Under the pieces are notes generated by a model, which worked only from the letters and a program-made list of their open reading frames with translations, made no database searches and had not been told where the DNA came from. Positions 4,241 through 54,503 of a stretch of DNA of 62,337 nucleotides are shown here, in pieces. Every line of letters starts with the position of its first letter. Within the stretch, counting starts at the first letter, position 1. The DNA comes from Nemertoderma westbladi (Eukaryota; Animalia; Xenacoelomorpha): the NCBI GenBank assembly GCA_032718475.1, contig JAUCBJ010005100.1, positions 1 through 62,337 of the forward strand, read 5' to 3'. Both the position numbers and the translations under genes were made by a program.

Positions 4241-4269
4241 ACAATAATTCAGAATCTACTTTCCCTTAG

Positions 4270-5985: not shown

Positions 5986-5987
5986 TT

Positions 5988-6125
5988 TCCAGAGATTTGC
6001 TGTCTTCAGCAGTTAGAGCCCAGCATGGGATCCGATAGAGGAGTATTTCTGCTTCTCTAAATAATCGGACCTGAAGTTTCCAACGTATTCTGTGTGACTT
6101 CCATATTCTGGAAAGACCATTCATA
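5988..6125 (-). mobile_element. Inverted RTE-type LINE RT fragment
   Basis: Minus translation LSRIWKSHRIRWKLQVRLFR..LLYRIPCWALTAEDSKSL is homologous to 35585-35720. Confidence 0.8.
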
Positions 6126-30753: not shown

Positions 30754-33541
30754 AAATTTTGATTGTTTAAATATTCTCACATTCACACATTCCGTTAGGG
30801 AACCCCAGTATTTGCGATTAGATTAGATTAGAAAAGACGTAATTATTAGCGCGTTTTAACAGTAAGATTAGATCGTAAGAATACACTCTGAGTGTAAAGC
30901 CTCTCACACTCGTCTTAAGTAAGCTTAGGAAGCCGATTCGGGTTTATTGTTTTGGTTATTCCCGCGTGGCTCATATATTCGAACAGTTAGCTTTCTATCG
31001 AGCGATCGGTAGAGAAAGGAACAAGCGATTAGCAGGAGCCGTAGAAATTTAGTAAAATATATTAGCGGACGGCAGGCGAGCGCCATCCAACGGTGAGTAG
31101 CAGTTTTGTATTTAGCAGCCCTACATTAGTAATAACACGCTCCTGATTACCCCTGTTTAATAGTAGAGCAGTCTTTGTGTCTTTATTGGTTAGGCAGAGA
31201 CCCGCTAGTTTAACAGTGAAGCACAGGTATTTGCCTGTTTAGCGGTTCTGCAGTTAGTACAGGGGTAGGTTGTTTAACAGTGAAGCACGTGATACTTGCT
31301 GTTGCTTGCAACAGTAAAGAGTGTATTCAGAGTTAGATTACTGTATTCACTAGTCGCATGCAGTAGTACAGTAGTGCATTAGGCTGATTGCTGTTACTGC
31401 GTACGGTAGAAAAGACATTTGTTTGGCTGTACCACATACAGTATTCATTAGGCTGTTAGGTTAGTGTACTGTTTTACTTACTGTACTGCGTACAGTGGAT
31501 GTACGGTAGTGCGTTTACTAATCGCAAATACAGCAGTTCATTAGGCCGTTAGGGCACGCTGTAATTAGTAAGTTTTTTGAAAATTTTAGCTAGGTTTGTG
31601 AGAATTCAGTTTTGGTCAAAATTATTTGTAATAAAATCTAGAGTTTTGTACCGGTATGTTAGATAACCGCTTAGTTGTTTTATACCATCTGGAGATACAT
31701 GGCAAGACGGAGCTTCTGAGTTTGGGGTTCGTGTGGGTCTGCGGGTTCGGTTTGCAATCAGTGAAGAGCCTGAAACTTTGGACGCGGGCGTGGAATCTCA
31801 CAGCAAACAAGGTTAGTTGTTCTGTTGGCACCATTGTGTTTGTGGAAGCAGTAAAAAATTACCGGTTGTTTAATTGCGAAGCTGAACACAATTTATTAGC
31901 TAGGTTAGTTAGGTTTAGCCGACCATGGTTTTTTGAATCGCTCAAGTTAGAGAGAGAGAGAGAGAGAGTCGCAACCCGAAGGTGTAGCCACGTGCTAGTG
32001 GATACATATAATATGTGAAATTAAAATTGCGTTGATTAGAGCTATATATGTAAAATTAGAAATATTTGGGTGGCAAGTTCATTTTTGAATATTTTGAATT
32101 AGATTCAGAAATTATTTTGTGTCATACCGGTATTTAAATGCTATATAATAGCTATAGAATAATATTTTTGTTTAAATATTGTACTGGTATTTGTAAAAGC
32201 TTTTGCGGATCTAGCTAGTTATTTTCCCCGCAAAGTACTCTGTAGGTGTTTTAGCGGACATAAAAAGCCGTTTCCTTACTGTACAGGTGATTTAGTGGAC
32301 ATAAAAAGCCATTTCTTCTGTATGTGTACTTTAGCAGACATAACTAGCGATTTTATGTCGCAATACGCCAAAATACTCTTGATACAGTGCAGTTCAGATG
32401 ACAACATCTATCAGCTGATATGTACATGTGTAACTTTTTCTTTGTTCGGTCGACCAATCAGAGCGATTTTCATTTTATTTGTACAGAAACCTCCGGGAAA
32501 TTGCGCAATGCATTATGGTTTATGTTTACCTTTTTTCCTGATGCCAGAACATCGGCTGTGGAATTATTCTGTGTTTCAGACTTTAGCCAAACATTAGAAC
32601 AGCTTTGATTATAGAAACGTATAACTGTTATCATATTGTTACAATCCATATTGTCATATTGTCAAACCAGATCACATACAAACACCGCATTATTTTACTG
32701 CTATTTACTGTCGGTTATTAATTGTTAGAAGTTGATGGAATGTTGTTATATTTGGAGAATATCGATAAATAACCATAAAACCCCAATCTTCTTGATATAC
32801 TGAAGGTTAGAGAGACCGGTTACATATAGCAATTGCGACTTACATTATAGTGGTTTTGGAGTGAATTGAATGCTGTTTCATAGGCCCTACATGTGTCGGT
32901 TGCTGTTCTCCTTATATATGATTTAAATTAGTGAAGGTCGGCAGATCAGTGTGCAGCAGTGTGCGGTAGTGTGCACGAGTGTGACAGATAACAAAGCATT
33001 TCCTAAAGAATGCGCCTTATACGTAAATCATTAGCCATCCCGTTGTGTTTAGTGTAAGTCATAACTCTGTTTACATACTTAGAGCGCCACGTCCTAAAGG
33101 AACTGTTAATATTTCCCGAAAGTGAATAATATTTGTCAGAGATTATATTAACGATCAGTCGAATAATACAGTAGGCCTACACCGCAATAAGGTCAGAGCT
33201 TCCGAATCCAGTCTCCCGGGTAAATCCAGTGGATGAATGGTCGCGCATAGGCTGGCTTCGGCTAATGTAGTTTTATGCGTATCAAATACTTGTCATAGGC
33301 TAAAGTCGATTTATAACCTAGAAGACACCTAAATTTGGCAGATTAAACTGCTAAACAGCGAACAGTGGCGAACAGTATTTGCTATAACTGTATCCTATTA
33401 AATTCACAATATTGCATTGCGAATTTATTTTGACATTTTTGGACCAACTAATTATTTGACAAATAATTTAATCATATTTTCGATTAAATATATCTCGAAT
33501 TTTTGCGAGATTTTGGCCGGAAGGCAAATATTATTTAGACT

Positions 33542-36500
33542 ATGAGTGTCTCAGAGAAGGAGGCACTAGAGGACAGCTATGAGACGGCGGCTGGACCGCC
33601 GACTGACGATAGCGTTAATATTACTGTTGACGACAATGCCGACTATGACGACGCAGCGAGCGACGCTGACGTAAGTGAACAGGAGGACGAGACAGTAACT
33701 AGTGAGGAAGAGCAAGCAGAGGTAATAGTATTAGGATCCCCTACCACTACTGTAAGGAAGGATTGTACAGCAGCCCGACCGGAGGTGAGTGATAGGGAAA
33801 GTAGTGTAGCAGAAGCGAGAGCCCGGAGCGCGGTTGCCAGACCTGTGGGTATGGTAAGTGCCGTGGTCCCACCGGCTAAAAGGAGTACCCGTTGTTCCCG
33901 AAATAATCCTTCAAGTCCACCGAGTGTGAGTCAGGAAAGCGAGAGAGAACTAGACACCGCGATAAAGGAGAAACTTCGCGCGCATGCCGGACATATAACT
34001 CGGACGGCGGACAAGGTAAGGAAGATGTTAGCCGACTCAGCAAACATCGGAAGGGAAGGGTTAGTAGAGATTAGAAAAGGATACAATTCAGCATTATTCA
34101 AGCAGATGGAGGAGCTTGCAGTCCTAGCGAAGAGAGCAGTGGAGTCTCAGTCAAGCGACGTGGCGACGAGAATTTACGACAGGGTTTTAGCAGCCTTGTT
34201 GGAGCACCACACATTATCAGAGCGATTTCGACGAGTTAGGACGGAGAACTGGTTGCTATGAGCATCACAAGCGCAGGCGACTCAGATGAGAGGCGCAGAG
34301 TTGAGAAACTTAGTGGAGCGGGAAGAGACGCAGGATAAGGAAGAGCGCAGGTATCAGAGGGAAGTTACCAGCTGGCTGATGCAGAGTGGAGTGGTGGTAC
34401 CGGGCCAGGTGCTGCCGACGACGGACAATATCCAACAGAGAAGGTTAACTCCACCCGACGACGCATCTAGAGAAGGTGGCGATTCCCAGGTTAGTCATGC
34501 GCGAGGGAAGGTTATATGTGCTAGATCCCTTGTTTCTCACAACTCGGTGGAGGAGAGAAGACACCGACTGAACGAACAACAGGCGGAAATTTTGCGTGCA
34601 TCGGAAGAAAAGAAGGAAGCCGAGTGGGAACAGGAGTGCACACGGAAGTTAGACGCAAAGTTGCGAGAGTTGGAAGAAATAAGTAAGCGTGAGCAAGCGG
34701 AACGCGAACGGAAGGAACGCGAACTCCAACTTGAACGCAAACAGAATGAACGCGAACTCCAACTTGAACGTGAACAGAAGGAACGCGAACGGAAGGAACG
34801 CGAACTCGAGATTGAGAAGGAGCGAAGGGCATTGTATGAAGAGAAGGCGCGTGTGGAAGAAGAGAGTGCAGCGAGACGAGCGAGGGAAGAAGAAGAACGT
34901 AAACTGGCACAGTTGGAAAGTGCGAGACTAAACTTAGAGAGCGAAGAACGGACCAGGAAGGCGAATGAAATCGCCGAGAAGGGGATGCGAATGATCGAAG
35001 AATGTGGGGCGAGTGTAGGTACTGAGTTGCGAGAACTGTTCGCACTACAGAAGGCCGAACAGGAAGCGAGAACTCCGACTATACGCGAGTCGACGACGAC
35101 CAGAATTCCTATACCCGGTCCAGCTATTACGAGTACTCGGATCGCTAAACCGTTCTCTACATATCGCACACCAGTTGGTATTAGTGCTTCTACTACTAGG
35201 ATCGGCATGCTGCATTGCAGCTGCATTTTTAAGAATGCTGTGCCGGCTTGTCAACAAAATTGCACCGCCACAACTCCCTATCACCCATGACATTTGCTAG
35301 ATCATCCGCATCTTTAAGGCCAGTGTCCTTTAAGATGCGTCTCAAGAAAGTCATGGGCTGTCCACCATGCTTATTCACTCCATGAGGCTGCCAAAGTACA
35401 AGATTATGCACTGGCTGGTCCTCATGGCGAAAGCAATGTCCTGCAAAGCGGAGGCGATTTTGTTCTAGTGTCAAGCTTGGGGGAACCAATGAGAAACCTC
35501 CAATGTTATATAGTGTCTGGTTGGAGATGTGTGCATTGTACTTGACACAATGTACCCGGCGTAGCATTCTTGTGAATGTGCCATCCAGAGATTTGGTGTC
35601 CTCAGCAGTTAGAGCCCAGCATGGACTCCCGTAGAGGAGTACTGGAACTACTGCTGCTCTAAATAATCGGACCTTAAGTTTCCGATTAATTCTAGGTGAC
35701 TTCCAAATCCTGGAAAGCCTATTCAAGGCTGCCCATGCCTTTCCCTTACGTATTCGAAGGTCCTCACCTGACTTCCGGATCCATGATCCCAGGTAACAGA
35801 AGTCGTCCACATGCTCAAGCATACCATCCTTTGAGCTTATGCTCATCCGATCAGAGACTTGCTGAGGACTTTCAAAGTTAACTGTCAGAATTTTGTCATT
35901 AGTGCTTCACCCATCGCGCAAGATCCATGTCATCAGGACACTGCACCACTACATACCGAACGTGACAACGAAGAGTTTAGAGGAGAAACTCCGACGGGCC
36001 GAGTATTGCGCGAACCGCGGGCAAACCCGCGGGTTTGGAATACGCGGACGGAGCGCCGACCCAGTTCGACGGAGAACTTCCGGGTTAAACCGGAAGAGGG
36101 ATCATATGAGAGACAGCGGATTACTCAGATAGAGCCAACAATACAACAGAACCCTAGCCAGGAATTTATTACGAGGGATGAGTTAAGTGCTAGTTTAGCA
36201 CAAGCTATATCGCCGCACATCCAACCTATAATGGACATGCTTAGTAACCTACAGTTAAAGGAAGCAGCCCAGGTAAGAAGTAATTCTAATCCTAGCAGGC
36301 CTGAGTTATTTTAAGTCCAACCTAGTCAACGAGTACACATATCGGAGGCAACTATACCACATAGACCTCAGGTAAGAATGCCTGTCCCTACGATACATAA
36401 TCCCAACTTCGAGAATTCGGCGGAAAGATTTATACAGGATGCTTGAGTCAGGGCTTCGGCGCGTAAACCAACGCGAGCGCTGAGAACTGATACTGACTCA

Positions 36501-37616
36501 AGCGATGAAGAGGAAGACATGAGACGTCAGAAGTCCCGAAACTATAAGGAAAGAAGGACCGACGCGGAGCAGGTAAGTTTCAATCCCCGGGAAAGGACCA
36601 GACTTAATAAGCCTGCAGAACTAAACCATTTGTTAACCTGGAACGACGCAACCCTTAGAGACATAGGTAAGTTTGCCGCTAGGCAAGGACTGCCGGCGCA
36701 ACAACCCCAGAAGTTTATGGGCAACCATAAACATTGGAGGACTTTCAAAACCTATGTCGACGAACAGCTGACCAACAGCACCTTTACTCCCAATGAGAAG
36801 TTCAACTATTTGCTTCAAATGCTCCATCGAGAATCTAGAGCCATTGCTGACAACTTCGTCGGCAATGAAAGAGCATTTGAGTTGGCAATGAAGACGCTTA
36901 GCGACATCTACGGGAATAAAACCAAGATGGCACAGTCGATAGTGGAAGACTTGGGTAAGGGCGGAAGGATTACAACTCTGCTGTTGAACTTAGCGAACGC
37001 TATTTCGAACGCATTAGACATCTTGAGGACGGTGAATCTACCTCATCATGGTGATCACGCCGAAGTTTTGAAGAGCATAATAAGACGTTTAAACATGCGT
37101 TACCGACAGAAATGGCGCAAATTAGAGAATAAGTTGGAGAGCCAAGGTAAAGTATTGACACTTCAACATATTCATGACATGATAGCCACAGACACAGTAG
37201 CAGAGATGAAGTCAAACTTCTCAGAGGAGAATATGAGAGAGTCTAAACCTGTTACCGGTAAGTCTATGGTAAGTTTTGACGATGACAGGACCACTGTGAC
37301 TTATAACTCAGTAGACAGATATAATTCGAGTACCCCTGCCTTTAGATCAGACTCGCGAGTATGGTCAGGTGAGCAGTCCGATAGACCTAAGTTAAAGCAA
37401 CAGGAGTTGCCGGATGGATTTGTAGGTTGCCAATTCTGTTTACTAAAGGAGGTAAGATCTGACGACCATAAGTTAGACAGTTGCAGACGGTTCAAAGAAT
37501 TAACTTCGGAACAGAGAAGAGTTCAAGTGCGGACGTTGGACACCTGTTGGGCATGTCTTGCGCCAGGTCATGTACGGCGGCAGTGCCCGAACAGCAAGGA
37601 CGGATGCATGGAATGA
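33542..37616 (+). pseudogene. gag: Element D gag (disrupted by stops and an RTE insertion)
   Basis: Has an E/R coiled coil, PQKFMGNHKHWRTF..EKFNYL, and the knuckles CQFC..HKLDSC and CWACLAPGHVRRQC. Confidence 0.85.
35191..35897 (-). mobile_element. 5'-truncated RTE-type LINE (707 bp) with an 11-bp TSD and (TAG)n tail
   Basis: TSD ATTAGTGCTTC at 35180-35190 and 35898-35908. The ORF reads VDDFCYLGSWI..KAWAALNRLSRIWKS..KVRLFRAAV.PVLLYG..W.LT..LDG..RMLR..RLRFAGHC.R, an RTE-like RT C-terminus. Confidence 0.92.
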
Positions 37617-37634
37617 GGCAGACTACATCACAAG

Positions 37635-40600
37635 TTGCTACATGCGGTTTTCCATACCCCAACGGACCGTTACTTACAGAGAAATCCTCAAAGGAAGGGG
37701 AGCAGAGAACCTGTATCGATAAGGAGAAATACGTACACCGGCATTCAGGATGATGGTTACCAACCAGATTCGTCAGACAAGGATGGCGAGTCGAGCGCGA
37801 GAGAAGTGACCTGCCAAGGTTTCACCGCGGATAGTTCATCGACCAGCGCGCGGACGTATTTATCATCGGCCACGTCGGAAATATTTAGCGTGATTCCGGT
37901 GAAACTTACTGGGGATAAGGGATCGAAGAGAATATATGTGATGTTGGACACTGCGTCCACACTATCGTATATAGACGAGGAAGTGGCGAGAGCCGTTTCC
38001 AGCTTCCAGGACACAGAGGAGATCCATATAGAGTTAAAGTTTATGCACGGGGTAGGGAACCTCAAGGGACACAGAATTTCGGTAGAACTAGACTCCCTAC
38101 TTCCAAGAGACCAGCACACTCGACAAGAACGGAGAGCTTTGCCATTGGACGGATTTAAGTGTCTAGCTATGAAGGGGTTTGGCAGGCAGTTAGGTAAGGG
38201 GCCACCGATGAGTCCCATAGTACAGGAATATTTTGACAAGCTCAGAATACCAAGACACCAGGTAGGTTATAGGAATGTTTCTATGTTGATTGGTGCAGAA
38301 CAGCTGATCGCACACCAGATATGGGAAATGAGACAAGCTGAGCCGCATGTAAATGGACCACATGCCCATAGGACTATATTAGGTTGGTATACAAGAGTAC
38401 CCATGTCTTATGAGTTTACAGGTGGCGAAAAGCCAATGGATAGATACAACGGATTACAGCCTATAACTGAACCACCATTAGTAGAACCACCAGACATAGA
38501 CGAGTTTAGGAGAACCTGTATTGACCACTATAGTGACATTAGCGAGTCGGACGAAGAGTTGATTCCCGATAATGTTAGGTTGTCGGAACCACTCTACAAT
38601 GACCGGACAGATAGTGAACCCGAGGACTACTGTTATCAGACCCGTGGGTCTGGTTCAGCACCCCACGCTACCTACTTGAGTAACGTTTTGACTTATACCG
38701 ATATAGTGGAGGGTCAAGTGGCTAAATATCGAGACCTAGCATTTTCCAATACAGTGAGGAGGAATTGCAGAAGGAATTGATATGCCAGGACCTCGAGACA
38801 GGAGCCAGAACCGTCGAATGGCTGGATAGGGACGCAATGGAACCCGGTGGATATGACCTAGCCATGTCCGCTGATGAGAAACGGTCGCTGGAGATGATGG
38901 AAGATACCATACGTCTGCTACTGACTGGACATTTTGAAGTTGGAATGTTGTGGCGTCGACAACCTCCTAAGTTGGAGAACAACTACAACTTGGCCTTGAA
39001 AAGATTGAACGGAGTAAGGGCTCGGTTGCTAAAGAATCCAGACGTTAGGGAGAAGTATTGCGCCCAGATCAACAACTATTTTGCCAAGGGATTTGCTGGG
39101 AAGGTAGAGGACCCGGACTTAGTGACAGACCAGACTTATTACCTCCCACACCACTATGTGACTCACCCTGACAAGCCAGACAAAGTCCGAGTAGTCAACG
39201 ACTGCGCAGCAGTCTATAGAGGTATGTCCCTGAATTCAGAGCTGATGGACGGTCCCAACCTGAATAATTATTTGATAGGAATACTGTTGCGTTTTAGACA
39301 GTGGTGATTCGCGTTTACTTGCGACATCGAGGCGATGTTCCACCAGGTAAGAGCCTGTAAGGCAGACCAGGATAGTCTTCGATTTCTCTGGTTTGAGAAT
39401 AAAGACCTATCCGGCCCAGTGGTTACATACCAAATGTATGTTAGGATATTCGGTGCCCGCGATAGTCCAAACGGCACGCTGTTTGTTCTAAAGAAAACGG
39501 CAACAGCCCAGATTGGTAAGTATCCAGTAGAAGTTATCGAGTCTATATTGAGAAACTTCTATATGGACGACGGATTGGTGTCCAAGGACACAGTGGAAAA
39601 AGCCATAGAAGTGGCTCACGGCCTACAGAAGTGCTTGGCAACAGGGGGTTTTCCTCTGACCAAGTTCACTACTAACTCGGAGGCCCTATTAGAATCGTTC
39701 CCGGTGAAAGATTGCGGGAGCGGAGACATAGAATTGGGGGTAGAACCCATTCCCATTCCCATTCCCATGGAATCCGAACACGGACAAGTTCCAGGTAAGA
39801 GTTAGATTTGAGCCCAGTAGTCCAGACAAAGTTTTGACAAAGAGAATTTGCTTATCAACATTAAGTAGACTATTTGACCCGATGAACTTTATCAGTCCGG
39901 TAATATTACAGGCACGAGCGTGCATGAGGAAAATTTTTTTGTCCGACTTAGAGTGGGACGAACCAATATCCCCTATACATGCAAAGCAGTGGAGAGAGTG
40001 GGAAGCCAAGTTGCATCTATTAAAAAACATAGATGTACCCCGCTCCTACTTTCCGAATCAGCTGGTGTTTCCAGCTGATTTAGAGCTCCATCTGTTCAGT
40101 GACACAAGTGACACTGGCTTTGGTATGGTAGCCTACCTTCGCCGAGAGGTAAGTCAAGACAAGTTTGAGATGGCCTTTGTGACTTCTAGATCAAAGACAA
40201 TGCCGGTCAAATACATGACTGTCCCTCGTGCAGAGTTGCAGGCAGAAGTAGTTTCAGTCGAGGTAAGTAAGCAGATAATAGAGGAGTTAGACACGACATT
40301 GACCTTATTCTATTGGACGGACGCATCCTTAGTGTTAGTATACATTGCAGCCGACAATATTGCACTAAAGACATTTGTGGCCAACAGACGCGCTCAGATC
40401 GTCGACTTTTCGACGAAGGAACAATGGAGACATTGTCCGGGAGTGTTAAACCCGGCCGACATAACTTCGAGAGGTGCTATGCCGGTGGAGTTCTGTCAGG
40501 AAGAGTCCCAGGAGTTTTGGTTGCATGGACCTGATTTTCTAACGAGGACACAGGAACATTGGCCAGAGCAACTGAAGATAGTGACCAATCCGATGCCAGA

Positions 40601-42524
40601 GGATGCAGAAGTCAAAGTGGAGAAAGTCTCTAAGTCAAAGTCGAAAGCCAAACTCCAGTTATTGGAGCGGCCTGAAGAGTCATTGGAGCGGCCTGAAGAG
40701 TCATTGGAGCGGCCCGGAGACCTGTCAGACCTACAGACTTACGTGACTACTAGGTCAGGAAGGGTAAGTTATGACATAAAACCACCCTTACAGACTACAC
40801 AAGAGTCACAATTGGTAAGTGACGGACAGAAAATGACCGACACAATGGAGCCTTTGGTTTCCAAACCTGCGGGTTTGGATTCGAAACTTCCATTAACTAG
40901 CGGACGACCGTCGCTGGCATTAGAGCCATGTAGTATTTATGACAAATTACTAAATTCGTCTGCCTCTTGGCTGACAATTTGTAAAAGAACTGCATGGTTA
41001 AGCCGATACGTTTCGTACCTTTGTTTAAAACATTCGAAACATTTAGGAGAACAAATGAGCGCTAATAGTGAGCGAATTCAGAAATTGAAACAACCTCTGA
41101 CAGAGGATGAGATTGATCAAGCGGAATTAAAGCATTTGAAACATTATCAAATGTGTGCCTTCCCCAAAGAATTCTATCTATTATCGGCTCAATGACCAGT
41201 TCTCTACAAACCCCTTAGAAAATGGAGTCCATTAATCCATAAGGGTTTGATTTGTCATAGATCAAGAATCCAGACTGTCGACATAAACTCACAGTTTAGG
41301 TTCCCAGTGATAATCCCTAGTCACCCAATAGAATTGCAAAGAGCGATTCTATGGGATATACACAAGAGGTTGCATCACGCGGGAAAGTTACACTGTTTGT
41401 CGGCAGAGAGACAGCGATTCATTCTATTGCAGCCAAGCAGGGCAGTGGGTACCATGTACGACGCCTGTCTGGTTTGCAAGAGAGTGAACGCCAGAGTATT
41501 GGAACAGGAGATGGCTGAACTCCCAGAAGCGAGAGTGCAGGCATATGACCCACCCTTTACAAATACAGGGGTAGATTGTTTTGGTCCGATTGAGGCAAAG
41601 AGTGGACGGCTGACCCATAAACGATGGGGCCTGCTACTGATATGCATGGCCAGTAGAGCCATACATATCGAGCGTGTGGCAGACAAGTCGACCAAATCTC
41701 TGCTCCTGGCCTTAAAGAGATTTATGGCCAGGAGAGGACTAGTAAAGGGGTTTTACTACGACAAGGGTACAAACTTTGTCAGAGGGAATAGCGAGTTAAA
41801 CGCGGCTCACAAACCAGCGCAAAATAGAGAAATTTCTGCAGCACTTTTGCCGCAAAGAGTAGAGTGGAGATTCAACACTCCAGAAAGTCCTTGGATAGGA
41901 GGAAGTTGGGAGTGTTTGGTTCGTTCCATAAAGCAGGCCATTGCTAAGACATTGCCTGTAAACAAACAACTTACCGACGACGAGCTGGTCACAGCTTTCA
42001 TCGAAATCGAGCATACGCTAAACTCGAGGCCGATAGCTATGTTGCCAGACGGTGTTGCATTAACGCCGAATCATTTGCTAATGCAGAGTCCAGCATTTCT
42101 TGTGCCGGCATCAGAACCCATTAGTGCCGACCTATACAGTCGTAAGAGCTTGAAAATAACTCAATTTGTTGCGTACACATTCTGGGAATATTGGCGGGAA
42201 TACTATCTTCCCACCATATCCACCAGATCAAAGTGGTACAAAACGGTTCGGAGCCTCCAAAGAGGAGACTACGTATTGATAACCGAACCAATTGTCAAGA
42301 GAAAATACTGGGAGACTGGAGTTATCTTGCACATACACCCAGACGTGCAAAATATAGTGCACACAGTCACTGTGAAAATTAGGTGCAAGTGTCCGCACCC
42401 AATGAAGTGTAAAACTAATGGTTTACACACCTTGGACCGACCGGTCCAAGATATCGGGTTATTAGAGGAGACACGCATCGAGACAGGAGATTATAATTTG
42501 TCTCCTGCCTCAAACAAAAATTAG
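37635..42524 (+). pseudogene. pol: Element D pol (PR, RT, RNase H, IN) with several stops and frameshifts
   Basis: MLDTAS protease; YYLPHH and FYMDD RT; LFSDTS and YWTDA RNase H; H..LHHAG..C..C, TGVDCFGP, DKGTNF, GGSWECLV, LNSRP and LTPNHLL integrase. Confidence 0.93.
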
Positions 42525-43301
42525 TGTTAGACGCAACTCACTTCGTGTGCATTCCTCGTATGCAAATACTAGGAAATGCACAGGAGCGGGTTTGCGGTGA
42601 TTTGCGTTGAGAATTTGTCTGGTGGGTATCAAAAACAAAATTTTATTTCAAAATTTTTCGAAAATTAAAAAATTTTAAAAATTAGAAGTGAACCCAAGAC
42701 AATTCCAAACGCTGTGTATAGACGCGTTTTAGAATTCGTCTATAGAGATACAGTAATTTGAGAAAAGTCGTGAAGCCTTGAAAATAGCATTTAGAAACCA
42801 TGGTGACGGCTATATTACATAGGAGTGTAAATTGAGTTTAGCAACTTCCACAGATTGGTGCCAACAGTACAACAACCAAGGTGCTAAAGGTTAGTAGCAC
42901 CAGAGGCGTACACGGACCCAACTCAGTAGTTTGCAATGAAGTGAGATGTTCGATTATCAAACCTGTGGGTTTGGTATTGTAGAGCGTTGAGACTATTGTC
43001 GTTTCTAACTACTGTAGTTTAGTACGAGTAATGGGAGTAGTTTGGGCATCAAAAAGTGAGTTGGTCACGGCCAGTTTATCTCCAAAGTTTTGCGCTATGC
43101 ATGGGAATAGGTTAGAGGATAGTTAGGAATGAGACGGGATCTAGAGAGTCGAACCTGAACTGCTGGAAGGCAGCTGGGGGGAGGGGGGGGGGGGTTCGGG
43201 AGGTCTGTCCTTCGGCGACATCTAACTGATTTACCCACAGTGTAATTAGCTACGTAACGGAACCTATTGGGATATATATATATGTATATACGCGGCTTAT
43301 A

Positions 43302-45955
43302 ATGGAGAAGGAAATTAGAGCTCAACCGCGGAGAGGATTTACTGCCAGAGAGGAGGCGGAACTACCATTTGCCCGACTGGGATGTAAAGACTCGAATGTT
43401 TACTACCATGGGAGGTCGGTAATGGAACTGAATGGGAAGTATAAACCCGAAAGAATGAGAGCGTTGAGACCGCATGAAAGAATGGGACCGTATGGAAGTT
43501 TTGCGGAAGGAGTATCGCACTCGGTATCCTTGCGATTTTGCGTTAGACGTATGCGACATTAGTGCAGACCCGGACGAGTAGATCGCACGGCTGTACCATA
43601 TGAACATGTATTTACGACACGACAAACCTCTACCTGCAGTCCGCGATCAGTTCGACGGAATGCATCTGTACCGGAGGACTCGAGGCGAGGATCAAGAGAC
43701 GTCAAAGGTCTTCAGTGTATACAAGTTGTTCTACAAATGTGGTGAATGCATGAATAAACAAGACGTGGCGATTCCCGATCGACTGGACGAGCAACATCCT
43801 GAACCGATATTAACGCGATGTCAAGCTCACCAGTTCCTTAGATACAACGAGGGAGGTTACCCAATGAGCAACCCGATGATCAGTATCGACTTCAGCGGAA
43901 AGCGACCTCCAAGACCCATTATGCCGACCATTACGACATTAAGATCCGTATACGGAGATTAAACCCTGTTCGACACCCAGTTTGATAGAGACGGCAGTGG
44001 CCATTTCGCTATACCGAGCCTATAAGGACCTAGAGGCGCGGCGTGAAGCGGCACGGGACTCGGGTACCAAACCCGCGGGTTTGGAGCTCTCGAGTCCCAT
44101 AATAAAGACACAATATCGGAAGGGGAAGGATCCTAGGGAACAGATTTTGGAGGTATGCAGGCGAGGAGGTATGCACGGAGCGGAGCGTATCGACGCCAGG
44201 ATGCTACCCAAGAAGGTTAGAGAGGCGATTCTCAACCAAGATTACGTCAAGGTGGGATCGGGAGTCCAGAGCGATTTGGAGAGTGACTTCAACGCCATGA
44301 CTGATTTGGAGGACAGATTGCCAAGACTGTTTGTTGACACCAAGCTATTGTTGCTATGGGCACAGGATATGGGAATTTATAGGGAGTATCCCAACTCTGC
44401 CAAGACTGGTATGGGCTTCATAGCGCATTTGTTGTATAATTGGGACTTCAAGTTGAAGACGCAGAAGAAATACGAGGAGGCGTATGGTGAATGTAACACG
44501 CCACCGGGAGCGGAGTTCAAATCCCACTTCAAGCGGCAAGCGTTAGTGTATTGGAACATTTGCGCGCCACCCCGTGCGTCACTACAATATTATTTGGTGC
44601 TTGAGTCGAACACGGTAACTTGTTTATTAGCGGATTTCGTTGCGCGAGTTTTGAAGCGTCATCCATTGGTATTCGGAGGAGATCAATACGTTCGCTCGAA
44701 AGGGGGAATCCAATCCGACGTTATGAAGCATTTCTTAACCCCGTTCTTCAACCAATTGTTAGAGAATACGTTGATGGTTAGGAGAGGATTAGCCATATTC
44801 GAAGGAATATATCGACAGAACATCGGAGATTTGGGAGACCGACCGTCGATGGAGTATCTGACGCCAGAGGCCTTGGAGAAGTGGTTCGGGAATCAAACCC
44901 GCGGGTTTGGTACTCTCTTCCACTCGGAGGCTGATAGACCTGTTAGAGAGGGTTGGCCGGAGACGTTAGTAGAGGTGTTCGAGTGGATCTTCCGGTGGAG
45001 AAGACATATCCGAAACGAACGCGGGAGGAAATATTGGAGATAGAGGACAAGGGCAAGGATGTTTACTTTGTTCCGGATCGACAACCTCTGACCGGAGAGG
45101 ACGACATCGTATTAGACATTGGGAAAGAAGGAAGTGCGAAACCGATTGGAGACCTCATATATGAGAGGGCCTGGTTTCCACAAGCGCGTAGGTGCAAGTT
45201 GTGCGGCAGCACAAGGCACAATCAAAAATCGTGCAACGCGGTAGTAGATAAGGTCTGCCGTTGGTGCAATGAGACCGACCATTCATTTCATACGTGCACC
45301 GTCTTCATTTCTCAATGCGGATATTGTGGGGTAAAGGGACATCGTAGCCCGAGATGCCAACTGCGAGATGATTCCTTCCAAAACCATAGCGCTAACCTAC
45401 TTCGAGAGATGCTAGATAAGTGGGAGGGTGTGGCCGATTACCACATCCAAGCGCAGATGCGTTGGTTACCGTTTAAAGCAGGATACGGGTTTTGGGCAGT
45501 AGACCCATCACACGTTGCGTATGAGCCGTATCTGCAGTCGTTACCACAATATCAGGAGCTAATACTGACCGCTCAAGATCTTCCGCAGAACACTGGAGTC
45601 ATCGTTGTTCGGGAATACTTCAGACAATTAAACATGGATAACAAATACACTTGGAACTTTGTTGCTATTTGCGACCGCATAACGAAAGGTCTATTTTCGG
45701 AAACTAGAAAGGTGGTGCGCGCGCGAGGAGATTGGAGGATGGCGGCTATACAATATCGCCGAGTTCCTATTGACTCACGTACTGGTGGGGTCATTGACCG
45801 CTGAGAGGATAAAGGAACAGCGAATCGCAGCGCCCACAGCGACAACCGTTGGAGCTCAAGGCTCGCGGAGAGAACCAGGAGGAGAGGTCCAAGACAAGTG
45901 TCAAGTCAAGGACGACCACTACCACTCAATACCTAAAGAGGTGAGGTCTCTATAG
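43302..45955 (+). pseudogene. Element D extra 3' ORF: DEDDy/WRN-like exonuclease fold plus 3 CCHC knuckles (frameshifted)
   Basis: LPKKVREAILNQDYVKVGSGVQSD..FVDTK..KTGMGFIAHLLYNWDFK..W....LQYYLVLES, then the knuckles CKLCGSTRHNQKSC, CRWCNETDHSFHTC and CGYCGVKGHRSPRC. Confidence 0.8.
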
Positions 45956-47874
45956 GGGTGTTGAGAACAGGCGGCGGCAGACTCGTGAGGGTCTGGGGGC
46001 ACGTTAAATTTGGTATATAGTGCAAGGGAGTCACTGAAGGCCCTTGTGTCTGACGAACCATGAATCAACATGGTGCCGTGGTTCTGTCTAGTCGGCATGT
46101 TGCCGTACTGCCAGTCCTGTATACAGTAGGGGTGGTGGCATGGCGTGATTTGTGGTTCATGTGGTGTGAACTGTGTTTTGTGTGTGGGCGAGCAGTGGCA
46201 GTTTGCTTGGGGCTTGGATGGGTTCTTTTGGCCATCAGCTGTTCCGTTTTTTTGATACTATATGTTATTGTCTCCATGTTCAGCTGATTGGTCTTTGGGA
46301 TTTGTTTGGGTCTTTGAGTTTTCTGTTGCTGTGGGGACGTGAGTACACGTGATTGTGTGTATGGCCACTGCGAGTGAGTGTGGGAAACCTTGCCAGTTGG
46401 CTCAGTCACCACTGGTATTAGTAGGACCATATTTTACTGCACCCCAGCATACTTTGTGCACACAAAGTTATTTTGCCCTGACGGTAAAATAAAGTACTCT
46501 CGACTCTCATGTTCTCTCTAGTCGATACAACTATTCCCTCTCGATTTTTGACCCCGATTTTGTCTTTACCGATTATGTCCTCTGTGTGTGCATGATATGT
46601 GTTCGATTTTGTGCTTACCGTTGTGTACTTGATATTGTGAACATCTGTTGAGTACACATGTACAGTGACTGGTAAGTGTTTACTTGTTCAGTAGCTTTTG
46701 AGCTACAGACAGTATTGTTTTTTCAATACTGCCGGCGAGGCAGGTGAAAACGAGTCAAAATTCCATGTTGGGTAGTGCAAGCCCACATGGGACAAGACCG
46801 TCGGTTAGGCCCAAGAGCGACCTTGGTGCTCGATTGCTATCGACTGGCCCACCTGCCCGTTGACTCTCTGAGTTGGCTCAATCTACAGTCAGGACACAGT
46901 AAGTTGACAGTAGCCGCCCATCTGGCTACACGTTCGACGAGCTGTGCCGGTGTGATCGGGGAATTGAAAATTGAACCCGGGAAGCATCTTGCCACCCCCC
47001 GGCCCGGTCTGATAATAACATCAGTTGGACTGGCCCCAGGGGTGGTGGAAAAGCGTCCGCCTCGTGGGTGCGCCTCGGGGAGGAGCCCAGAAGGACGTAA
47101 GCGGCAGCGCAAGGCGCAAGGTGCATCGGAGAAAGCTCGGGTGCAATTGCAGAAGGAAGAGTTGGCGGAAGCGACCACAGGAGCACGACAATTGGGACGA
47201 GGCCGAGGGAGAAGCACGAGCCGGGATTCGGTCGGGGCTCAGGGAACATCGTCGCCGGTTCCGGGGAGTGACGCCTCGCGGACAACGTCAACAGAGTCGA
47301 CGGGAGGACGATTAGTGTATCTGGGAAGGGGGCGGAAGAGAGGAGCGAGCCCGAAGAACCCAGGAGCGGGTCGGTAATGCATTCGTATCATGGAGTGACA
47401 GACTCTAGATATATACATCATCGTCGCTCTGATGTATATTGTAGCATTTGTAAACATTTGACTGGACTCATATACACTAGTCGCATCGATTTGAATTTAT
47501 GTTATGAGAGAGGCGAAGGAGGTGATTGGGGAGACAAACCTGCGGGTTTGGCTTACTCCTTTCATCTACCCTAGCAAGTTTTATAAAGAAAGTCATATTT
47601 TGTAAATTTAATTTGTAAGTAGTAATCATTATGTAGAACGAATGAGAAAGCAGTATTTTTGTAAATTTAATTTGTATGTAATAATCGTTAACATTGAAGG
47701 AGATAATATTTCGTAAATTTAATTTGTATGGTAATGTATTAATTATAATGTCTTCGGATTGTCTCCGGCTTGGCCTACTTACAATGGACTGTACGAGTTC
47801 TAACTTGCCTAATACAATTCTGCCTGTGTCTGGTTTAATAGCAAGTTTGCTCGATCCTTCTCTCTCTCGCCCTC

Positions 47875-50800
47875 TTGGAGTATTCGTCTGTCGCGAAGCC
47901 TGCTTGCTGTGGTTGCAACCCTAGATCTGGTCGCTGCGTTCGTTGTTCGTGTGCGAGGTCGGGATTGCCATGTGCCTCTTGTGCTCCGATGGCAAGTGGG
48001 CGCTGTTGTAACGCACTGGGAGCTGTCAGTTCGCAGCAAGTCATCTCCGGCACTTCGCACGACATATCGCCTTCCAAAAACAGCAGTGCATCCCAACCGA
48101 CTGCCACATCATCAACAGGAGAAGATGGCGACGAGACCCTGGTAGACCATGATATAACCATGGCTTCATCTCCCAGCTCGTCGTTTCAGCTACCCAATAG
48201 GACAGCGACCCCGTTTCAGCTACCCAATAGGGCAGCGACCCCGTTTCACACAGCCTCAGAATCCGTTCCCATCGTGATGCCTCCCGGTTACAGCGGGTCT
48301 GTGGGCCACGGCGTACTCGACTACATGCTAACCAACTCGCCGCGGACGAGTCAGGCTACAACAACGAAAAAGGGCAGGGTCCAGGCACCAAGTGAGACAC
48401 CACAAATAAACTCAACTCTGGATGAACTTGACTACCTCATGGAATCCGCGTCGGGCTCTCCCCAGTTTGTGATGGATGTCCCCATATATGAACCGGGTGT
48501 CTCCCAGTCTGTGCCCGGCTCCCCCGTGTCTGAGTCAGGTGCTCCCCAGCCCGTATTGGTTGCCCCCCAATCCATGTCGTGCTTCCCCATACCCGTGTCG
48601 GGTGCTCCTCTATCTATATCGGGTTCCCGCCAGCTGGGTGCCCCCCAGTATGTGTCAGATGCTCCCCAGGATGTGTCGGTTGCCCCCCAGTATGTGTCGG
48701 GTGCCCCCCAGTATGTGTCGGGTGCCCCCCAGTATGTGTCGTGTGGCCCCCAGTATGTGTCAGGTGTGCCCCAGTATGTGTCGGGTGTGCCCCAGTATGT
48801 GTCGGGTGCCCCCCAGTATGTGTCGCTTGCCGCCCAATCCACGTTGTGTGTCCCTCTGTCTGTGCCTGATGTCCATCAGTCCATGTCGAGTGCCACCCAG
48901 TCTGAGTCGGATGAACCCTTGTTTGTGTCAGGAATCTCCCTGTCTATGTTGGGTTCCTCCCAGTTGGGCGCCCCCCAGTCTGTGTCGGATGCCCACCAGT
49001 CTGTGTTGTGTGTCCCGCAATCTGGAATGTGTCCCCCCCAGTCCATGTCGTGTTTCCCCCAGTCTGTATCAGGTGTGGGGTCTACAGCAGCGTCAGGTGC
49101 CTTTCAGTCCAGGGTTGGAGCCATTCAGTCCGGGGTTGGAGCAGGTCAGTCCGGGGTTGGAGCTATTCAGTCCGGGGTTGGAGCATGTCAGTCGGGGGTG
49201 GATGTCAGCCTATCCAGGATTGGAGCAGATCAGTCCGGGGTTTTGGGGGTGGAAGCCAGCCTGTCTGGGGTTGGAGCAGGCCAGTCCGGGGGTGGAGCTG
49301 TTCAGTCCAGGGGTAGAGCAGGTCAATTCTGGGTTGGAGCTGTTTGGTCCGGTGTTGAGCCCAGCCTGTCCGGGGTTGAAGCATGTCAGTCCGGGGTTGG
49401 AGCAATACAGTCCGGGGCTGGAGCAGGACAGTCCGGGGGTGGAGCTGTTCAGTCCGGGGTTGGAGCAGGTCAGTCTGGGGTGGCTGTATTCCGGTCAGCC
49501 CAGGGTTGGAGCAGGTCCGTCTGGGGCCGGAGCAGGTCAGTCCGGGGGTGGAGCAGGTCAGTCCGGGGTTGGAGTAGGCCAGTCCGAGGTTGGAGCAGGT
49601 CAGTCCGGGGTTGGAGCTGTTCAGTCTGGGGTTGGAGCAGTACAGTCCAGGGTTGGAGCAGGTCAGTCTGTGGGTGGAACTGTTCAGTCCGGGGTTGGAG
49701 CAGGTCAGTCCAGGATGGCTGGAGCCGGTCAGTCTGGGGCTGGTGCAGGTCAGTCCAGGGGTAGAGCAGGTCAGTCCGGGGTTGGAGCAGGTCAGTTCGG
49801 GGGTGGCACCTCCACGTTTGCAGCGTTCTGGGACCCCGTTGCAGAGGGTCACCGCGACTCAGACCCGGAGGGGTTGATGAACCGTGCATATGGAGCTCCT
49901 CTAGTTGGTAAGGGGGCAGTGCCAGACGAACTTCTCCACCAGTGGAGACGGGCGACCCAGCTATGCGGCTCAAAATACAGGCTGCCTGGGGGTGCTGTGG
50001 GCAGGGACGTTGTCTCCCTCCTCTCGGATGAGGCCGGTGCTTTTGTCTCTGGACTAAAGCACAACATTGCTAATGCTCGTTCGGAGCGCATCCTCCTTGC
50101 TGACTCATTGCTACTCCACAGGGACCCCAAGGTTATTAAAGCAGCCGATATTCGCCGACTCCTCACCAGACGCGTCGAGTTATGGCGCTCTGGACACCTG
50201 GAGACACTGCTTGTGGAAGCCGAACGCTGCTCCTTAAAGTTTTCAACTGGCAAGTGGGGTACCAGGAGGTGCCGACCACCAGGGGAGGAAAAGGAACACA
50301 CGATCCGTATTTTCACTCGGCTCATGCTGGAGGGAAAGGTTAGAAGCGCAGTCAGATGGGTGACGGGGCGAGAATCCAGTGGGGTCCTCGACCCCAATGA
50401 CGAGATCCAATCAGGAGGAAGTAACCAGCGGGTGTTGGACGTTCTCCGAGCTAAGCATCCCTTAGCGGCACCACCCCCACCGGAGGCATTACTACAACCC
50501 GAGGAAGACTTTCCACTCAGGGTTGATGTGGATATCACAGCGTCACACATCGAATCCGCTGCCCGTAAACTACATGGAGGCGCTGGTCCGACCGGATCGG
50601 ACTCTACCAGGTGGCGCGATTACCTCCTCAGCTATGGGGCCCATAGCGAGCGCCTCCGGGATGCAATAGCCAGTATTACCCGCTCCATTGCAAACTCAGT
50701 AGTTCCGTGGGAGTCGATTCGCGCATTACAGTCAGGACGGCTCATCGCCCTGGATAAATGTCCTGGTGTTCGGCCAATAGGAATTGGTGAGTGCCTGCGA

Positions 50801-51709
50801 CGGATCATGGGCCGTGCCATGGCAGAGGAGACCGGGGACGACATCACCAACACGTGCGGAGCGGAGCAGTTGTCGGCTGGCACCTCTGCGGGTGCTGAGG
50901 CGGCTATCCACTCGATGGCGGCAATATTTGAGGATTGGCGCGATGATGGGTGGGGTGTTCTCCTGGTGGATGCATCAAATGCATTCAATGCACTAAACAG
51001 AACGGCAGCTCTGTGGAACGTCCGCCAACTGTGGCCCCAGTGTTCACTGTTCTTGTTCAACAGTTACCGGGGTCACAGCATCCTCATAGTCCGCGGAACA
51101 GAGGAGGTGCTGTTCAGCGAGGAAGGGGACACGCAGGGTGACCCATTAGCAATGCCGTTCTACGCGTCGGGTGCACTCCCTCTTATTCGTCGTCTAAGAA
51201 GCACCAAGACTCGCCAGAACTGGTATGCCGATGACTCCGCGGCAGCAGGAAAGCTAGAATATGTTCTTGACTGGTTCCTCCTGCTGCAGCATCACGGCCC
51301 CACACTCGGCTACTACCCAGAGCCTACGAAATGCTTCCTTGTAGTTGACGAAGCCTTTCTGGATGAGGCCAACAGGGTTTTCGCGGGTCACCCCATCAAC
51401 ATCGTAATGGGACACCGCTTCCTCGGGGGGTTTATTGGTGGGACGGACGACCAGAAGACGTTTGTAGGGGCGAAGGTAGCAGCGTGGGTCGCTTCTGTCG
51501 ATAAACTGTCTGAGATGGCTGAGGCCCAGCCGCAGGCCGCATTCGCAGCGATGGCCTGTTCTCTGCAAAGAGAATGGGCATATCTCCAGCGCGTCACACC
51601 TAACTGTAGCCTTGAGTTTGAGGACCTGGAGCGCGCCATCGCGGAGAAGTTCCTCCCAGCCATTCTCAATGGAGATGTGTCAGTGAAGGAACGTAGCTTG
51701 TTTGCCCTG
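47875..51709 (+). CDS. CRE-like single ORF (Cys-rich N-terminus, repeats, reverse transcriptase); frameshift near 49.5 kb, truncated by LTR insertion
   Basis: ORF 47875 hands over to the frame of ORF 48476 inside the QSGVGAG repeat. The RT stays open until the LTR junction tttgccctg|TGTGAC. Confidence 0.85.
48640..49810 (+). repeat. Coding 21-bp tandem repeats (PQYVSGA-type, then QSGVGAG-type)
   Basis: CCCCAGTATGTGTCGGGTGCC units at ~48640-48830 and CAGTCCGGGGTTGGAGCAGGT units at ~49105-49810. Confidence 0.9.
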
Positions 51710-52949: not shown

Positions 52950-54503
52950 CTATCTGTTCCTCTGGAGATAGTTCCCTCTGGCGTCCTCTTCCCTGGGTCG
53001 TTTCTTGGTTACTACCGCTCCTCTGGTATCCGCTTTCTGCTTTCGGACTTTCGCCGCCACCTCCCTACTGATCCCGGTTGTTGGCTCCTTGGGCGCTGGT
53101 GTTATTAGTGCCCGATATCGCTTCGCCGGTGGCCCCTCAGAGTGGCCCTGTTCTCTCCCTCTGGTGGCGTCCCATAGGATCATCTTCATTGCTCGCGGCA
53201 CGTGCTCCGCCAAGAAATCCCTAAACTCCCCTCGGTTCTGTGGCGTCCACCTGTCCAAATATCTTTGCGTATTCATCACTCCGGCATACGACGCCGCCGT
53301 TGCTACCTCTTGATAGGTAAACGGTAGCCTCCGCTTTATGATTTCCATGTGAGCCTCCTGATTGATAAGGAAGAAACCCCACTTGAACTCCTGGGCCTTC
53401 ATGCGCTGGCGCGTCATGGCTCCGACGTCGGCCCACTCCTCGAATCTTCTGAACTTCTCTTCGTCGTCCATCCAGTCGCACTGGCGTCCGTAGCGTCCTC
53501 GAAAGTTGCACTTCGGACATCGGTTATGCAACCGTGGACACGCCCCCATCCTGTGGCTCGACTCGCGGCAGTAGAGACAAAAGGTTCCCTTTTGGAACCG
53601 GTACAAACAGCTCCTTTCCTGGTGGGTCTGTCTCCCACAGTAGTCGCAACCGAGTACCAATGTCTCCCGCCCCACGTCGTCTTTCGTCCCAAGCGATCTC
53701 CGCGGTCTGTGGAGTCGCTGGTAGGCGAACTTCTGCACGTTGGTGTCCCTGTCTACGTCGATCTCTCCGCCCCTCTCGTCTCCCCGAATACTACCCGTGG
53801 TGCCGTCCCCGGTTGCTCGCCCAACCTGATAGTGCTCCCCGCGAAATCCATCGCCGGCTCCTCGTGCACCCAGGTCCGCTTGCCGGATCTGTCCCAGAAG
53901 GCCCTCGCCCCACTGGCCGTCACCACCCTCCCGCCAACCCAGTCCGTGTCCGAGTGGCCTATCCTCTCGATGGGCGGCACCTCTCCGAACCCGTCGTCGT
54001 CCTCGTCCTCCTCTCGCAGTGGTTCCAACCCCGGTATCCTGGTGGACCCACTATGTCCCTTCCCACCTTGGTTCTTGCCCGTAACTCTCCATTCCTCAAG
54101 CTCCCCTAGCCTCCTTTACGGTTGGTCGCCCTCGGCGCCCACTGGTATGGGCATCGCTTGCAATCCCGACGTCGACTGTTTCGGTGATCCCACCGTCCAC
54201 CCCAGTTCTTTCCCTAGAGACTCCCCCGAACTCCCTGACAAAGCCCAACGAAGTTCGTCTAAGGCTGCTTGTTCCTCTAAGCCGTAGCTCTGCGCCCTAG
54301 CTTCCTCCTCCCTCTCCTCTGCTTCTCTCCTCTCTCACAAGTTTGCCTGCCATCTCGAACTCTGCCCGATCGCTCACCCGTAGGGGGTGCCTTGCCAAGG
54401 CACAAACGTGATGAGTGATGGGTTTAGGTGGTTTAAGTTCAGTTCGATGGCCTATCTCTTTCTGAATTTCTGAGTTATTGCCTATTCTTACTACTGTTAC
54501 CAT
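52950..54503 (-). pseudogene. Element C extra 3' ORF: 3 CCHC-type knuckles plus FEEWAD..T..R..WGF domain (frameshifted, no exonuclease-like part)
   Basis: CDYCGRQTHQERSC, CLYCRESSHRMGAC and CPKCNFRGRYGRQC, then FRRFEEWADVGAMTRQRMKAQEFKWGFF. Confidence 0.7.

What the first reader, a model, noticed from the sequence alone, without database searches (positions are those of the whole stretch)
36022..47550. Sister element D has its own palindrome at the homologous positions: a family-specific code with a shared YGCG core
Seen: CAAACC-YGYG-GGTTTG(G) at 36022, 40862, 42958, 44068, 44894 and 47535; the 44067-44084 copy is a perfect 18-bp palindrome. Positions match B: in gag, in the pol/extra-ORF spacer, shortly after 'LYRAYK', shortly after 'DRPSM', and in the 3' UTR. 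The stems differ completely from B (AGGCT/AGCCT) but are uniform within each element, implying concerted replacement at several distant sites. C-to-T variants still pair as G-U in RNA, and c(UGCG)g is a UNCG-class tetraloop, though CpG decay could also explain these variants. Inference: a self-recognition system (homodimerisation or selective packaging) co-evolving with an element protein such as the triple-knuckle extra ORF.
Basis: partly seen in the sequence, partly recalled or inferred. Interest (0 to 1): 0.9.

Follow-up and report, generated by a model that had tools for sequence, protein, structure and literature searches.

The report
Family-specific repeated hairpins in retrotransposons
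Two sister jumping genes (BEL/Pao retrotransposons) each carry their own short palindrome repeated eight or nine times along their length, four of them at matching places, and these likely fold into RNA hairpins that would let each family's own proteins pick out its own RNA for packaging.

Summary
Confirmed. Element D, a decayed BEL/Pao retrotransposon, has the six palindromes exactly where stated (chance 0), plus two likely and one doubtful variant copies. Sister element B has eight copies of its own version. Four sites match B within 6-36 nt of shared protein anchors. The stems are not 'completely different': both fit ARRCY-YGYG-RGYYT and differ by compensatory changes. New evidence favours RNA hairpins. 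D's flanks pair into longer, site-specific stems (P about 2e-4), more so on the sense strand. At the spacer copy, other family copies pair at all 12 lower-stem positions, with G-U pairs. Best reading (0.5): dispersed self-recognition or packaging hairpins bound by the element's own zinc knuckles (Gag and/or the extra ORF), with family-specific stems. Against: B shows no lower stems; element E has a related knuckle ORF but no repeated hairpin; no third family, expression or binding data were obtained. The UNCG and CpG-decay ideas are not supported. No earlier scan finding matched. My paper searches found no such system in LTR retrotransposons.

The parts
33500..47650 (+). Element D, decayed BEL/Pao LTR retrotransposon (approximate limits; no LTR pair found in the window)
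   Evidence: DUF1759, Peptidase_A17, Integrase_H2C2, DUF5641; continuous family depth in runs X1 and X3; self-BLAST shows no LTR pair
36021..36038 (+). D palindrome, gag, upstream of DUF1759 (loop CGCG); matches B 13942
   Evidence: in 100-nt context a competing fold wins (stem probability 0.03)
40861..40878 (+). D palindrome in the RNase H-integrase linker (loop TGCG), with predicted lower stem
   Evidence: z -2.3
42945..42988 (+). D palindrome 42957-42974 (loop TGTG) in the pol/extra-ORF spacer, on a 12-bp lower helix (42945-42956 with 42977-42988) with G-U pairs; matches B 24591
   Evidence: (z -2.7 sense, +0.9 antisense)
44055..44098 (+). Perfect 18-bp D palindrome 44067-44084 (loop CGCG) on a 10-bp lower helix (44055-44064 with 44089-44098), just after LYRAYK; matches B 25743
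   Evidence: (z -3.9)
44893..44910 (+). D palindrome (loop CGCG) just after DRPSM; matches B 27004
47534..47551 (+). D palindrome (loop TGCG) in the 3' non-coding region, purine-rich 5' flank and pyrimidine-rich 3' flank
   Evidence: position match to B not anchored
38636..38653 (+).
33837..33854 (+).
37347..37364 (+). Doubtful variant D copy (5 mismatches; one compensatory change, one mismatch) between DUF1759 and the gag knuckles
   Evidence: hairpin lost in the unconstrained fold
43302..45952 (+). Extra ORF (ORF3) of D, broken into several frames: conserved N-terminal block, a middle part with DEDDy-exonuclease-like motifs (lead only), three zinc knuckles and a conserved domain after them
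   Evidence: 40-63% identity to B; distant relatives P0001, P0004/P0008, P0005, P0007; DEDD lead 0.86 for relative P0005, not confirmed
35180..35897 (.). Separate high-copy insertion inside D gag (not part of the system)
   Evidence: joint 35179-35898 in runs X3, X4, X5 and far higher depth
12881..28628 (+). Eight copies of B's 20-nt version (12881, 13942, 14035, 24591, 25743, 27004, 28461, 28609), all in one orientation, with a fixed A.A mismatch
52950..54050 (-). Related knuckle ORF of element E, an element with no repeated hairpin (comparison case)
   Evidence: hhalign probability 92%, E 7.6e-7

Best explanation
The repeated palindromes of element D likely fold into stem-loops in the element's genomic RNA and likely serve as dispersed, family-specific self-recognition (packaging) signals read by the element's own zinc-knuckle proteins. 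Shown: 8-9 copies per element, at matching sites in B and D, in inter-domain linkers, read in different frames, all in one orientation, with B-versus-D stem differences that keep pairing. Predicted: each D copy caps a longer stem whose lower part differs in sequence from site to site, which would hold the shared tip exposed. Inferred: the loop guanines at positions 2 and 4 are bound by CCHC knuckles (Gag nucleocapsid and/or ORF3), as for HIV-1 SL2. Inferred: the uniform upper stem gives family specificity, either by protein contact or because identical palindromes can switch from hairpin to RNA-RNA duplex with any other own-family copy, linking two genomes. Inferred: the need for all sites to stay compatible, helped by template switching between copies during reverse transcription, would drive the concerted change between B and D and keep sister families from cross-packaging.
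For: Flank pairing in D: mean z -1.54 for 9 copies against -0.07 for the motif dropped at 150 random D sites, P about 2e-4; sense strand -1.54, antisense -0.82. Own flanks beat all 8 swapped flanks for 6 of 9 copies. Spacer copy: 10 of 12 lower-helix positions pair in the window, and both mismatches fall where almost all other copies in runs X1, X2 and X3 carry a letter that pairs. All 7 variant rows in the helix arms are compatible with pairing, one only if linked to its partner change. No variant row lies in the 18-nt motif (P 0.11 alone). Across 13 distinct copies, 89% of cells pair, 5 of 8 pairs change on both sides, and 0 of 500 shuffles reach this (the copies were found as palindromes and are related, so this is a description, not an independent test). 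G at loop position 2 in 17 of 17 and at position 4 in 16 of 17; HIV-1 knuckles bind G9 and G11 of the G8-G9-U10-G11 loop (PMC7599994, passage). Same orientation in 8 of 8 B and 9 of 9 D (P 0.008 and 0.004). D copies are evenly spread (smallest gap 826 nt, P 0.002 for 9 copies, 0.11 for the six exact ones). Four anchored position matches (rough P 1e-4 to 5e-4).
Against: B shows no flank pairing (Stouffer z +0.2 to -0.7), so lower stems are seen in D only. D 36021 and B 13942/14035 are not predicted to form in 100-nt context. Element E has a related knuckle ORF but no repeated hairpin, so ORF3 does not need them. Only two families could be compared. Linkers tolerate insertions, which inflates the position match, and the anchors were chosen after reading the claim. 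Ty1 and Ty3 need only their ends for packaging (PMC4974528, passages). Nothing here tests binding, dimerisation or packaging.
Confidence: 0.5

Rival explanations
1. The palindromes are double-stranded DNA sites for a dimeric element-encoded regulator (ORF3), a VANC-like anti-silencing or transactivation system with a family-specific code.
For: Dyad symmetry, a CpG core, family-specific sequence and an extra ORF of unknown function. VANC21 and VANC6 bind different short motifs in their own transposon families (PMC5735166, passages). Sirevirus LTRs carry palindromic repeated motifs in CpG islands (PMC2829016, passages).
Against: All copies face one way. Variation is wobble-tolerant on the sense strand, and the lower stems contain G-U pairs. 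Most copies lie in coding linkers, whereas VANC motifs are tandem repeats in non-coding parts. The elements are not CpG-depleted. CCHC knuckles usually bind single-stranded nucleic acid (established knowledge).
Confidence: 0.17
2. The hairpins are RNA transport, export or localisation signals: either a Rev/RRE-like pair with ORF3, or sites for a host adaptor of the Egalitarian type.
For: Stem-loops of 40-60 nt with bulges and differing lower stems resemble Egl cargo signals, which include one in the I factor retrotransposon; Egl binds through a DEDDy domain (bioRxiv 2025.08.03.668247, passages). ORF3 may hold a DEDDy-like domain (lead).
Against: Egl signals share shape, not sequence, while these tips are near-identical within a family and differ between families in one host. 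The DEDDy call is unconfirmed (probability 1%, not above shuffled controls).
Confidence: 0.15
3. The copies have no function. A hairpin that stalls reverse transcriptase was copied to tolerant linkers and is homogenised by template switching or gene conversion.
For: All coding copies lie in poorly conserved linkers and in varying frames. B has a tandem-duplicated pair, 13942/14035. A single orientation fits copying in cis.
Against: Site-specific lower stems with different sequences need selection at each site. The same four sites were kept while pol diverged to about 55% amino-acid identity. B-versus-D changes keep pairing. Elements C and E show nothing similar.
Confidence: 0.1
4. The hairpins are RNA-processing or replication signals, such as cut sites for an RNase III-type enzyme, stops for a 3'-5' exonuclease, or pause points for plus-strand synthesis.
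For: Invariant G at loop position 2 on a long stem recalls NGNN-capped RNase III substrates (recalled, not from a call). A possible exonuclease-like domain lies in ORF3.
Against: Cutting at 8-9 sites would destroy the genomic RNA. The catalytic residues are not clearly kept in B or D (read by eye). No RNA ends could be examined because only contigs were available.
Confidence: 0.08

Closest known systems
Multiple dispersed packaging signals of ssRNA viruses (MS2, picornaviruses, HBV pregenome; review PMC6281560, passages read)
   Same: Many stem-loops spread along the genome RNA, with a shared apical recognition motif, in coding regions.
   Different: Those signals are degenerate. These have near-identical 18-20-nt palindromic tips that changed in concert between sister families, in an LTR retrotransposon. 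Protein binding is not shown here.
Retroviral and Ty1 psi and dimerisation hairpins (HIV-1 SL2, psi and DIS; MoMuLV DIS-1, DIS-2, SL-C, SL-D; Ty1 PAL) (PMC7599994, PMC4974528, passages)
   Same: Palindromic hairpins able to form extended duplexes; tetraloops with G at positions 2 and 4 bound by CCHC knuckles.
   Different: Those are one to a few different hairpins clustered in the 5' leader. Here one motif is repeated 8-9 times over 14-16 kb, inside gag, pol and ORF3.
VANC / VANDAL anti-silencing system of Arabidopsis (PMC5735166, passages)
   Same: Family-specific short motif repeated in a transposon that carries an extra gene; proposed co-evolution.
   Different: DNA transposon; 8-9-nt non-palindromic dsDNA motifs in tandem repeats in non-coding parts. 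Here an RNA-type hairpin, dispersed, mostly in coding linkers. I did not compare ORF3 with VANC directly; ORF3 gave no Pfam hit other than a weak zinc knuckle.
Sirevirus repeated palindromic motifs (PMC2829016, PMC4728375, passages)
   Same: Palindromic repeated motifs with CpG cores in an LTR retrotransposon, also near an extra gene; families can have distinct sets.
   Different: Plant Copia; clustered in LTRs and before env; read as promoter boxes and siRNA hotspots. Not placed at homologous coding linkers.
DEDDy ORF3 of bdelloid Juno and Vesta LTR retrotransposons (PMC5408684, passages)
   Same: Extra ORF after pol with a possible DEDDy exonuclease domain.
   Different: Those lineages are not described as BEL/Pao in the passages read; 0 mentions of palindrome or hairpin in the text. 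Here the ORF adds three knuckles, and the DEDDy call is only a lead.

Membership tests
BEL/Pao LTR retrotransposon (host element) | DUF1759 gag, Pao Peptidase_A17 region, integrase with DUF5641, order RT-RNase H-integrase | tested here: met
   (E 1.8e-10, 8.1e-37, 9.5e-16)
BEL/Pao LTR retrotransposon (host element) | Paired LTRs | tested here: not met
   No LTR pair for D or B in the window; both are nested and cut by other elements
Dispersed packaging signals | Several stem-loops with a shared apical motif spread along the genome RNA | tested here: met
   (prediction plus variation at one site)
Dispersed packaging signals | Bound by the capsid or nucleocapsid protein and needed for selective packaging | not testable with these tools
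   needs binding and packaging assays
Retroviral dimer-initiation palindrome | Self-complementary hairpin able to form an extended duplex | tested here: met
   duplex favoured over two hairpins in 45 of 45 D-D and 36 of 36 B-B pairs, 9 of 72 B-D pairs (computed only)
Retroviral dimer-initiation palindrome | Confined to the 5' leader, one or two copies | tested here: not met
   8-9 copies across the element
UNCG tetraloop | c(UNCG)g loop | tested here: not met
   2 of 9 D copies; 0 of 8 B copies (U-A closing pair)
VANC-type anti-silencing system | [quoted passage not shown] | tested here: not met
   7 of 9 D copies lie in coding frames, dispersed
VANC-type anti-silencing system | Element protein binds the dsDNA motif and removes methylation | not testable with these tools
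   needs EMSA, ChIP and methylome data
DEDDy exonuclease ORF3 | DEDDy fold with Exo I-III motifs | tested here: inconclusive
   Atlas lead 0.86 to RNase_T clusters for relative P0005; hhalign lands on the Exo II region at probability 1%, not above 40 shuffled controls; no Pfam, NCBIfam or PDB hit; models pLDDT 35-37
Known structured RNA families (Rfam 15) | Match at the gathering score | tested here: not met
   0 matches in the window

The most novel reading that the evidence does not exclude
These BEL/Pao elements run a lock-and-key identity system. An accessory knuckle protein (ORF3, possibly a dead DEDDy nuclease plus three knuckles) reads a family barcode written 8-9 times along the genomic RNA, and barcode and reader change together as families split, so sister elements in one genome cannot use each other's particles. 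It would be the RNA-level counterpart of VANC/VANDAL, inside protein-coding linkers of an LTR retrotransposon.
Probability: 0.25. Interest if true: 0.88.

Novelty: new variant of a known kind. Interest (0 to 1): 0.72.

Why it matters
How LTR retrotransposons pick out their own RNA, and how sister families in one genome avoid cross-packaging, is poorly defined even for Ty1 and Ty3 (PMC4974528, passages). Here two sister families carry a short, explicit, repeated code that differs by a few compensatory changes, which makes specificity testable with short RNAs and small knuckle domains. It is also a clear case of concerted evolution at distant sites inside coding regions, and it points to an uncharacterised ORF3 family with a new knuckle-plus-domain module.

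Tried and rejected
No host genome is held, so a genome-wide search across families was impossible. Homologue searches for ORF3: none (1022 candidates), none (559 candidates), only P0005 itself. The profile search gave 7 hits, of which P0001, P0004, P0005 and P0007 align over the knuckles and the following domain; P0002, P0003 and P0006 were dropped as repeat or generic-knuckle matches. DNA for these relatives could not be fetched (no match). Locus searches: viral contigs none; metagenome 1 locus, L001, bacterial and spurious; L045 a T4-like phage, spurious; prokaryote genomes none. Motif scans of viral contigs: 32 single hits for D and 5 for B, none similar to the window by tblastx. Two AlphaFold models were unusable (pLDDT 35 and 37) and the Foldseek search gave nothing. 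Atlas on B's ORF3: 0.84, unnamed. No RNA holder listed; X5 is only guessed to be RNA, so expression is unknown. Rfam and ARAGORN were empty. De novo searches in C, E, F and the flanks found no dispersed hairpin family. CpG decay and a UNCG rule were considered and rejected. Scan look-ups showed no matching finding. Paper searches found no report of such a motif in BEL/Pao elements; the library lacks most subscription journals, and I read no supplements or repeat databases, where such families might be described.


Full report
Observation. The six copies stand at 36022, 40862, 42958, 44068, 44894 and 47535. 44067-44084 is a perfect 18-bp palindrome. No shuffle of 100 gives a match. A scan at up to five mismatches adds 33837, 38636 and 37347, all inside D and none elsewhere. 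38636 has a compensatory arm change and is convincing, 33837 is likely, and 37347 is doubtful (about two chance hits are expected at that level, hand estimate). Element B has eight copies of a 20-nt version, all facing the same way, with one fixed A.A mismatch.

The elements. D (about 33.5-47.6 kb) and B (about 12.1-28.7 kb, split by nested element C) are decayed BEL/Pao LTR retrotransposons: DUF1759, Peptidase_A17, integrase zinc finger and DUF5641. Their pol blocks share 54-56% amino-acid identity, against 32-41% with element E. Both carry an extra ORF after pol, 40-63% identical between them, broken by stops and frameshifts in the window. A 718-bp foreign insertion lies in D gag. No host genome is held. 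An animal host is inferred from the element type (own knowledge).

Positions. Measured from shared peptides, four sites match: -724 vs -706 in gag, -379 vs -343 in the spacer, +54 vs +60 after LYRAYK and +79 vs +58 after DRPSM. The rough chance is 1e-4 to 5e-4, but this is generous: the anchors followed the claim, and all coding copies lie in variable linkers. The 3' copies cannot be anchored, and the window's B lacks the regions that match D's 38636 and 40861. The motif is read in different frames at different sites, so it acts as nucleic acid. With the insertion removed, D's nine copies are 0.8-2.6 kb apart, more even than random (P 0.002; P 0.11 for the six exact copies). B has two close pairs.

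The two motifs are homologous. One pattern, ARRCY-YGYG-RGYYT, catches 14 of the 17 sites on the + strand and one more on the - strand, with 0.17 expected. In the gapless alignment, two inner pairs never vary and five of eight pairs change on both sides; 89% of cells pair. The copies were chosen as palindromes and are related, so this describes the pattern and does not prove selection. D's variant copies carry a G at the position where B does.

RNA or DNA. With the tip held fixed, D's flanks pair with each other better than shuffled flanks: mean z -1.54 against -0.07 for the motif dropped at 150 random D sites, P about 2e-4; the antisense value is -0.82. Own flanks beat all swapped flanks for 6 of 9 copies. 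The 44067 copy sits on a 10-bp lower helix. At the spacer copy, 10 of 12 lower-helix positions pair in the window. Contigs of three DNA runs (two samples) show that almost all other copies differ from the window at both mismatches, with letters that pair. All seven variant rows in the helix arms are compatible with pairing; one needs its partner change in the same molecule, which the table cannot show. None of 19 rows falls in the motif, so the UGUG loop is the family state there (P 0.11 by itself; contigs drop rare variants, and one loose end shows another Y-G-Y-R loop). The helix holds several G-U pairs, which would be A.C on the other strand (z +0.9). The elements are not CpG-depleted. Against this: B shows no flank pairing, and three of 17 copies lose the hairpin to a competing fold in 100-nt context.

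The possible reader. Loop position 2 is G in 17 of 17 copies and position 4 in 16 of 17. HIV-1 knuckles bind G9 and G11 of the GGUG loop of SL2 (PMC7599994, passage). Both Gag and ORF3 have knuckles. ORF3's knuckles and the following domain have four distant relatives among seven hits. For relative P0005 the Atlas points to DEDD exonucleases at 0.86, a lead only. A profile of ten RNase D and polymerase exonuclease domains aligned at the expected Exo II region but at probability 1%, no better than 40 shuffled controls. Both folds failed. Element E has a related knuckle ORF and no repeated hairpin by three searches. So ORF3 can exist without the code, and Gag is an equally good candidate reader.

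Mechanism. I commit to dispersed self-recognition (packaging) hairpins at 0.5. Shown: copies, positions, orientation, pairing-preserving divergence. Predicted, with variation support at one site: extended RNA stems in D. Inferred: knuckle binding to the loop guanines, family specificity from the upper stem, and a hairpin-to-duplex switch. Computed duplexes are favoured in all own-family pairs and in 9 of 72 B-D pairs, which follows from the sequences alone. Also inferred: homogenisation by template switching under a need for compatible sites. Rivals: a VANC-like dsDNA code (0.17), transport or export signals (0.15), neutral spread (0.10), processing signals (0.08). The RNA-level readings together come to about 0.73.

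Comparison with what is known. It works like the multiple dispersed packaging signals of ssRNA viruses (PMC6281560, passages) and resembles retroviral and Ty1 palindromic dimer or psi hairpins (PMC7599994, PMC4974528, passages). It differs by repeating one near-identical tip across gag, pol and ORF3. The family-code logic recalls VANC/VANDAL (PMC5735166, passages) and Sirevirus palindromes (PMC2829016, PMC4728375, passages), which are non-coding, clustered DNA motifs. DEDDy ORF3s are known from bdelloid LTR elements (PMC5408684, passages). Egalitarian shows a DEDDy domain binding bulged stem-loops (bioRxiv 2025.08.03.668247, passages). Other papers were seen as search listings only. Ten searches found no description of this motif system; subscription journals, supplements and repeat databases were not covered. 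Rfam has no match. Five look-ups in the scan's own notes showed nothing on this DNA or its like.

Verdict. A real, non-random feature, richer than reported: nine candidate copies, homologous stems and evidence for RNA structure. New variant of a known kind; interest 0.72. The main limit is that only two families could be compared.

Noticed in passing
window 52950-54050 (-): Element E, a more distant BEL/Pao element (32-41% pol identity to D), carries an ORF3 with the same three knuckles and following domain but no repeated hairpin.
   Followed up: partly
window 17446-17463 and 24124-24141: Both LTRs of nested element C end in a 7-bp hairpin with loop CGTA, which fits the same Y-G-Y-R loop pattern; one copy per LTR. 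The LTRs are 98.6% identical, so C inserted recently.
   Followed up: no
window 47842-51784 (+): A separate element with long 21-bp repeat arrays and an RT-like frame (motifs recalled as CRE-type non-LTR; no Pfam hit) lies between D and E.
   Followed up: partly
window 35180-35897: A 718-bp very high-copy insertion in D gag; its pieces match 3880-6123 and a 70-bp exact match at 57949-58018 in E.
   Followed up: partly
window 46054-46284 and 46748-47377 (+): D's long 3' region holds a short hydrophobic, cysteine-rich frame and a 209-codon basic frame of unknown status; B lacks an equivalent.
   Followed up: no
P0001, P0005, P0008: Distant ORF3 relatives from other datasets pair a DEDD-exonuclease-like N-terminal part with the triple knuckle; P0001 has the knuckle module twice. 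This looks like an unnamed mobile-element protein family.
   Followed up: partly
window 33000-48000: Summed contig depth across D is in the tens of thousands in runs X1 and X3, against single contigs near 20-35, which suggests a very abundant family (depth is not a copy number).
   Followed up: no
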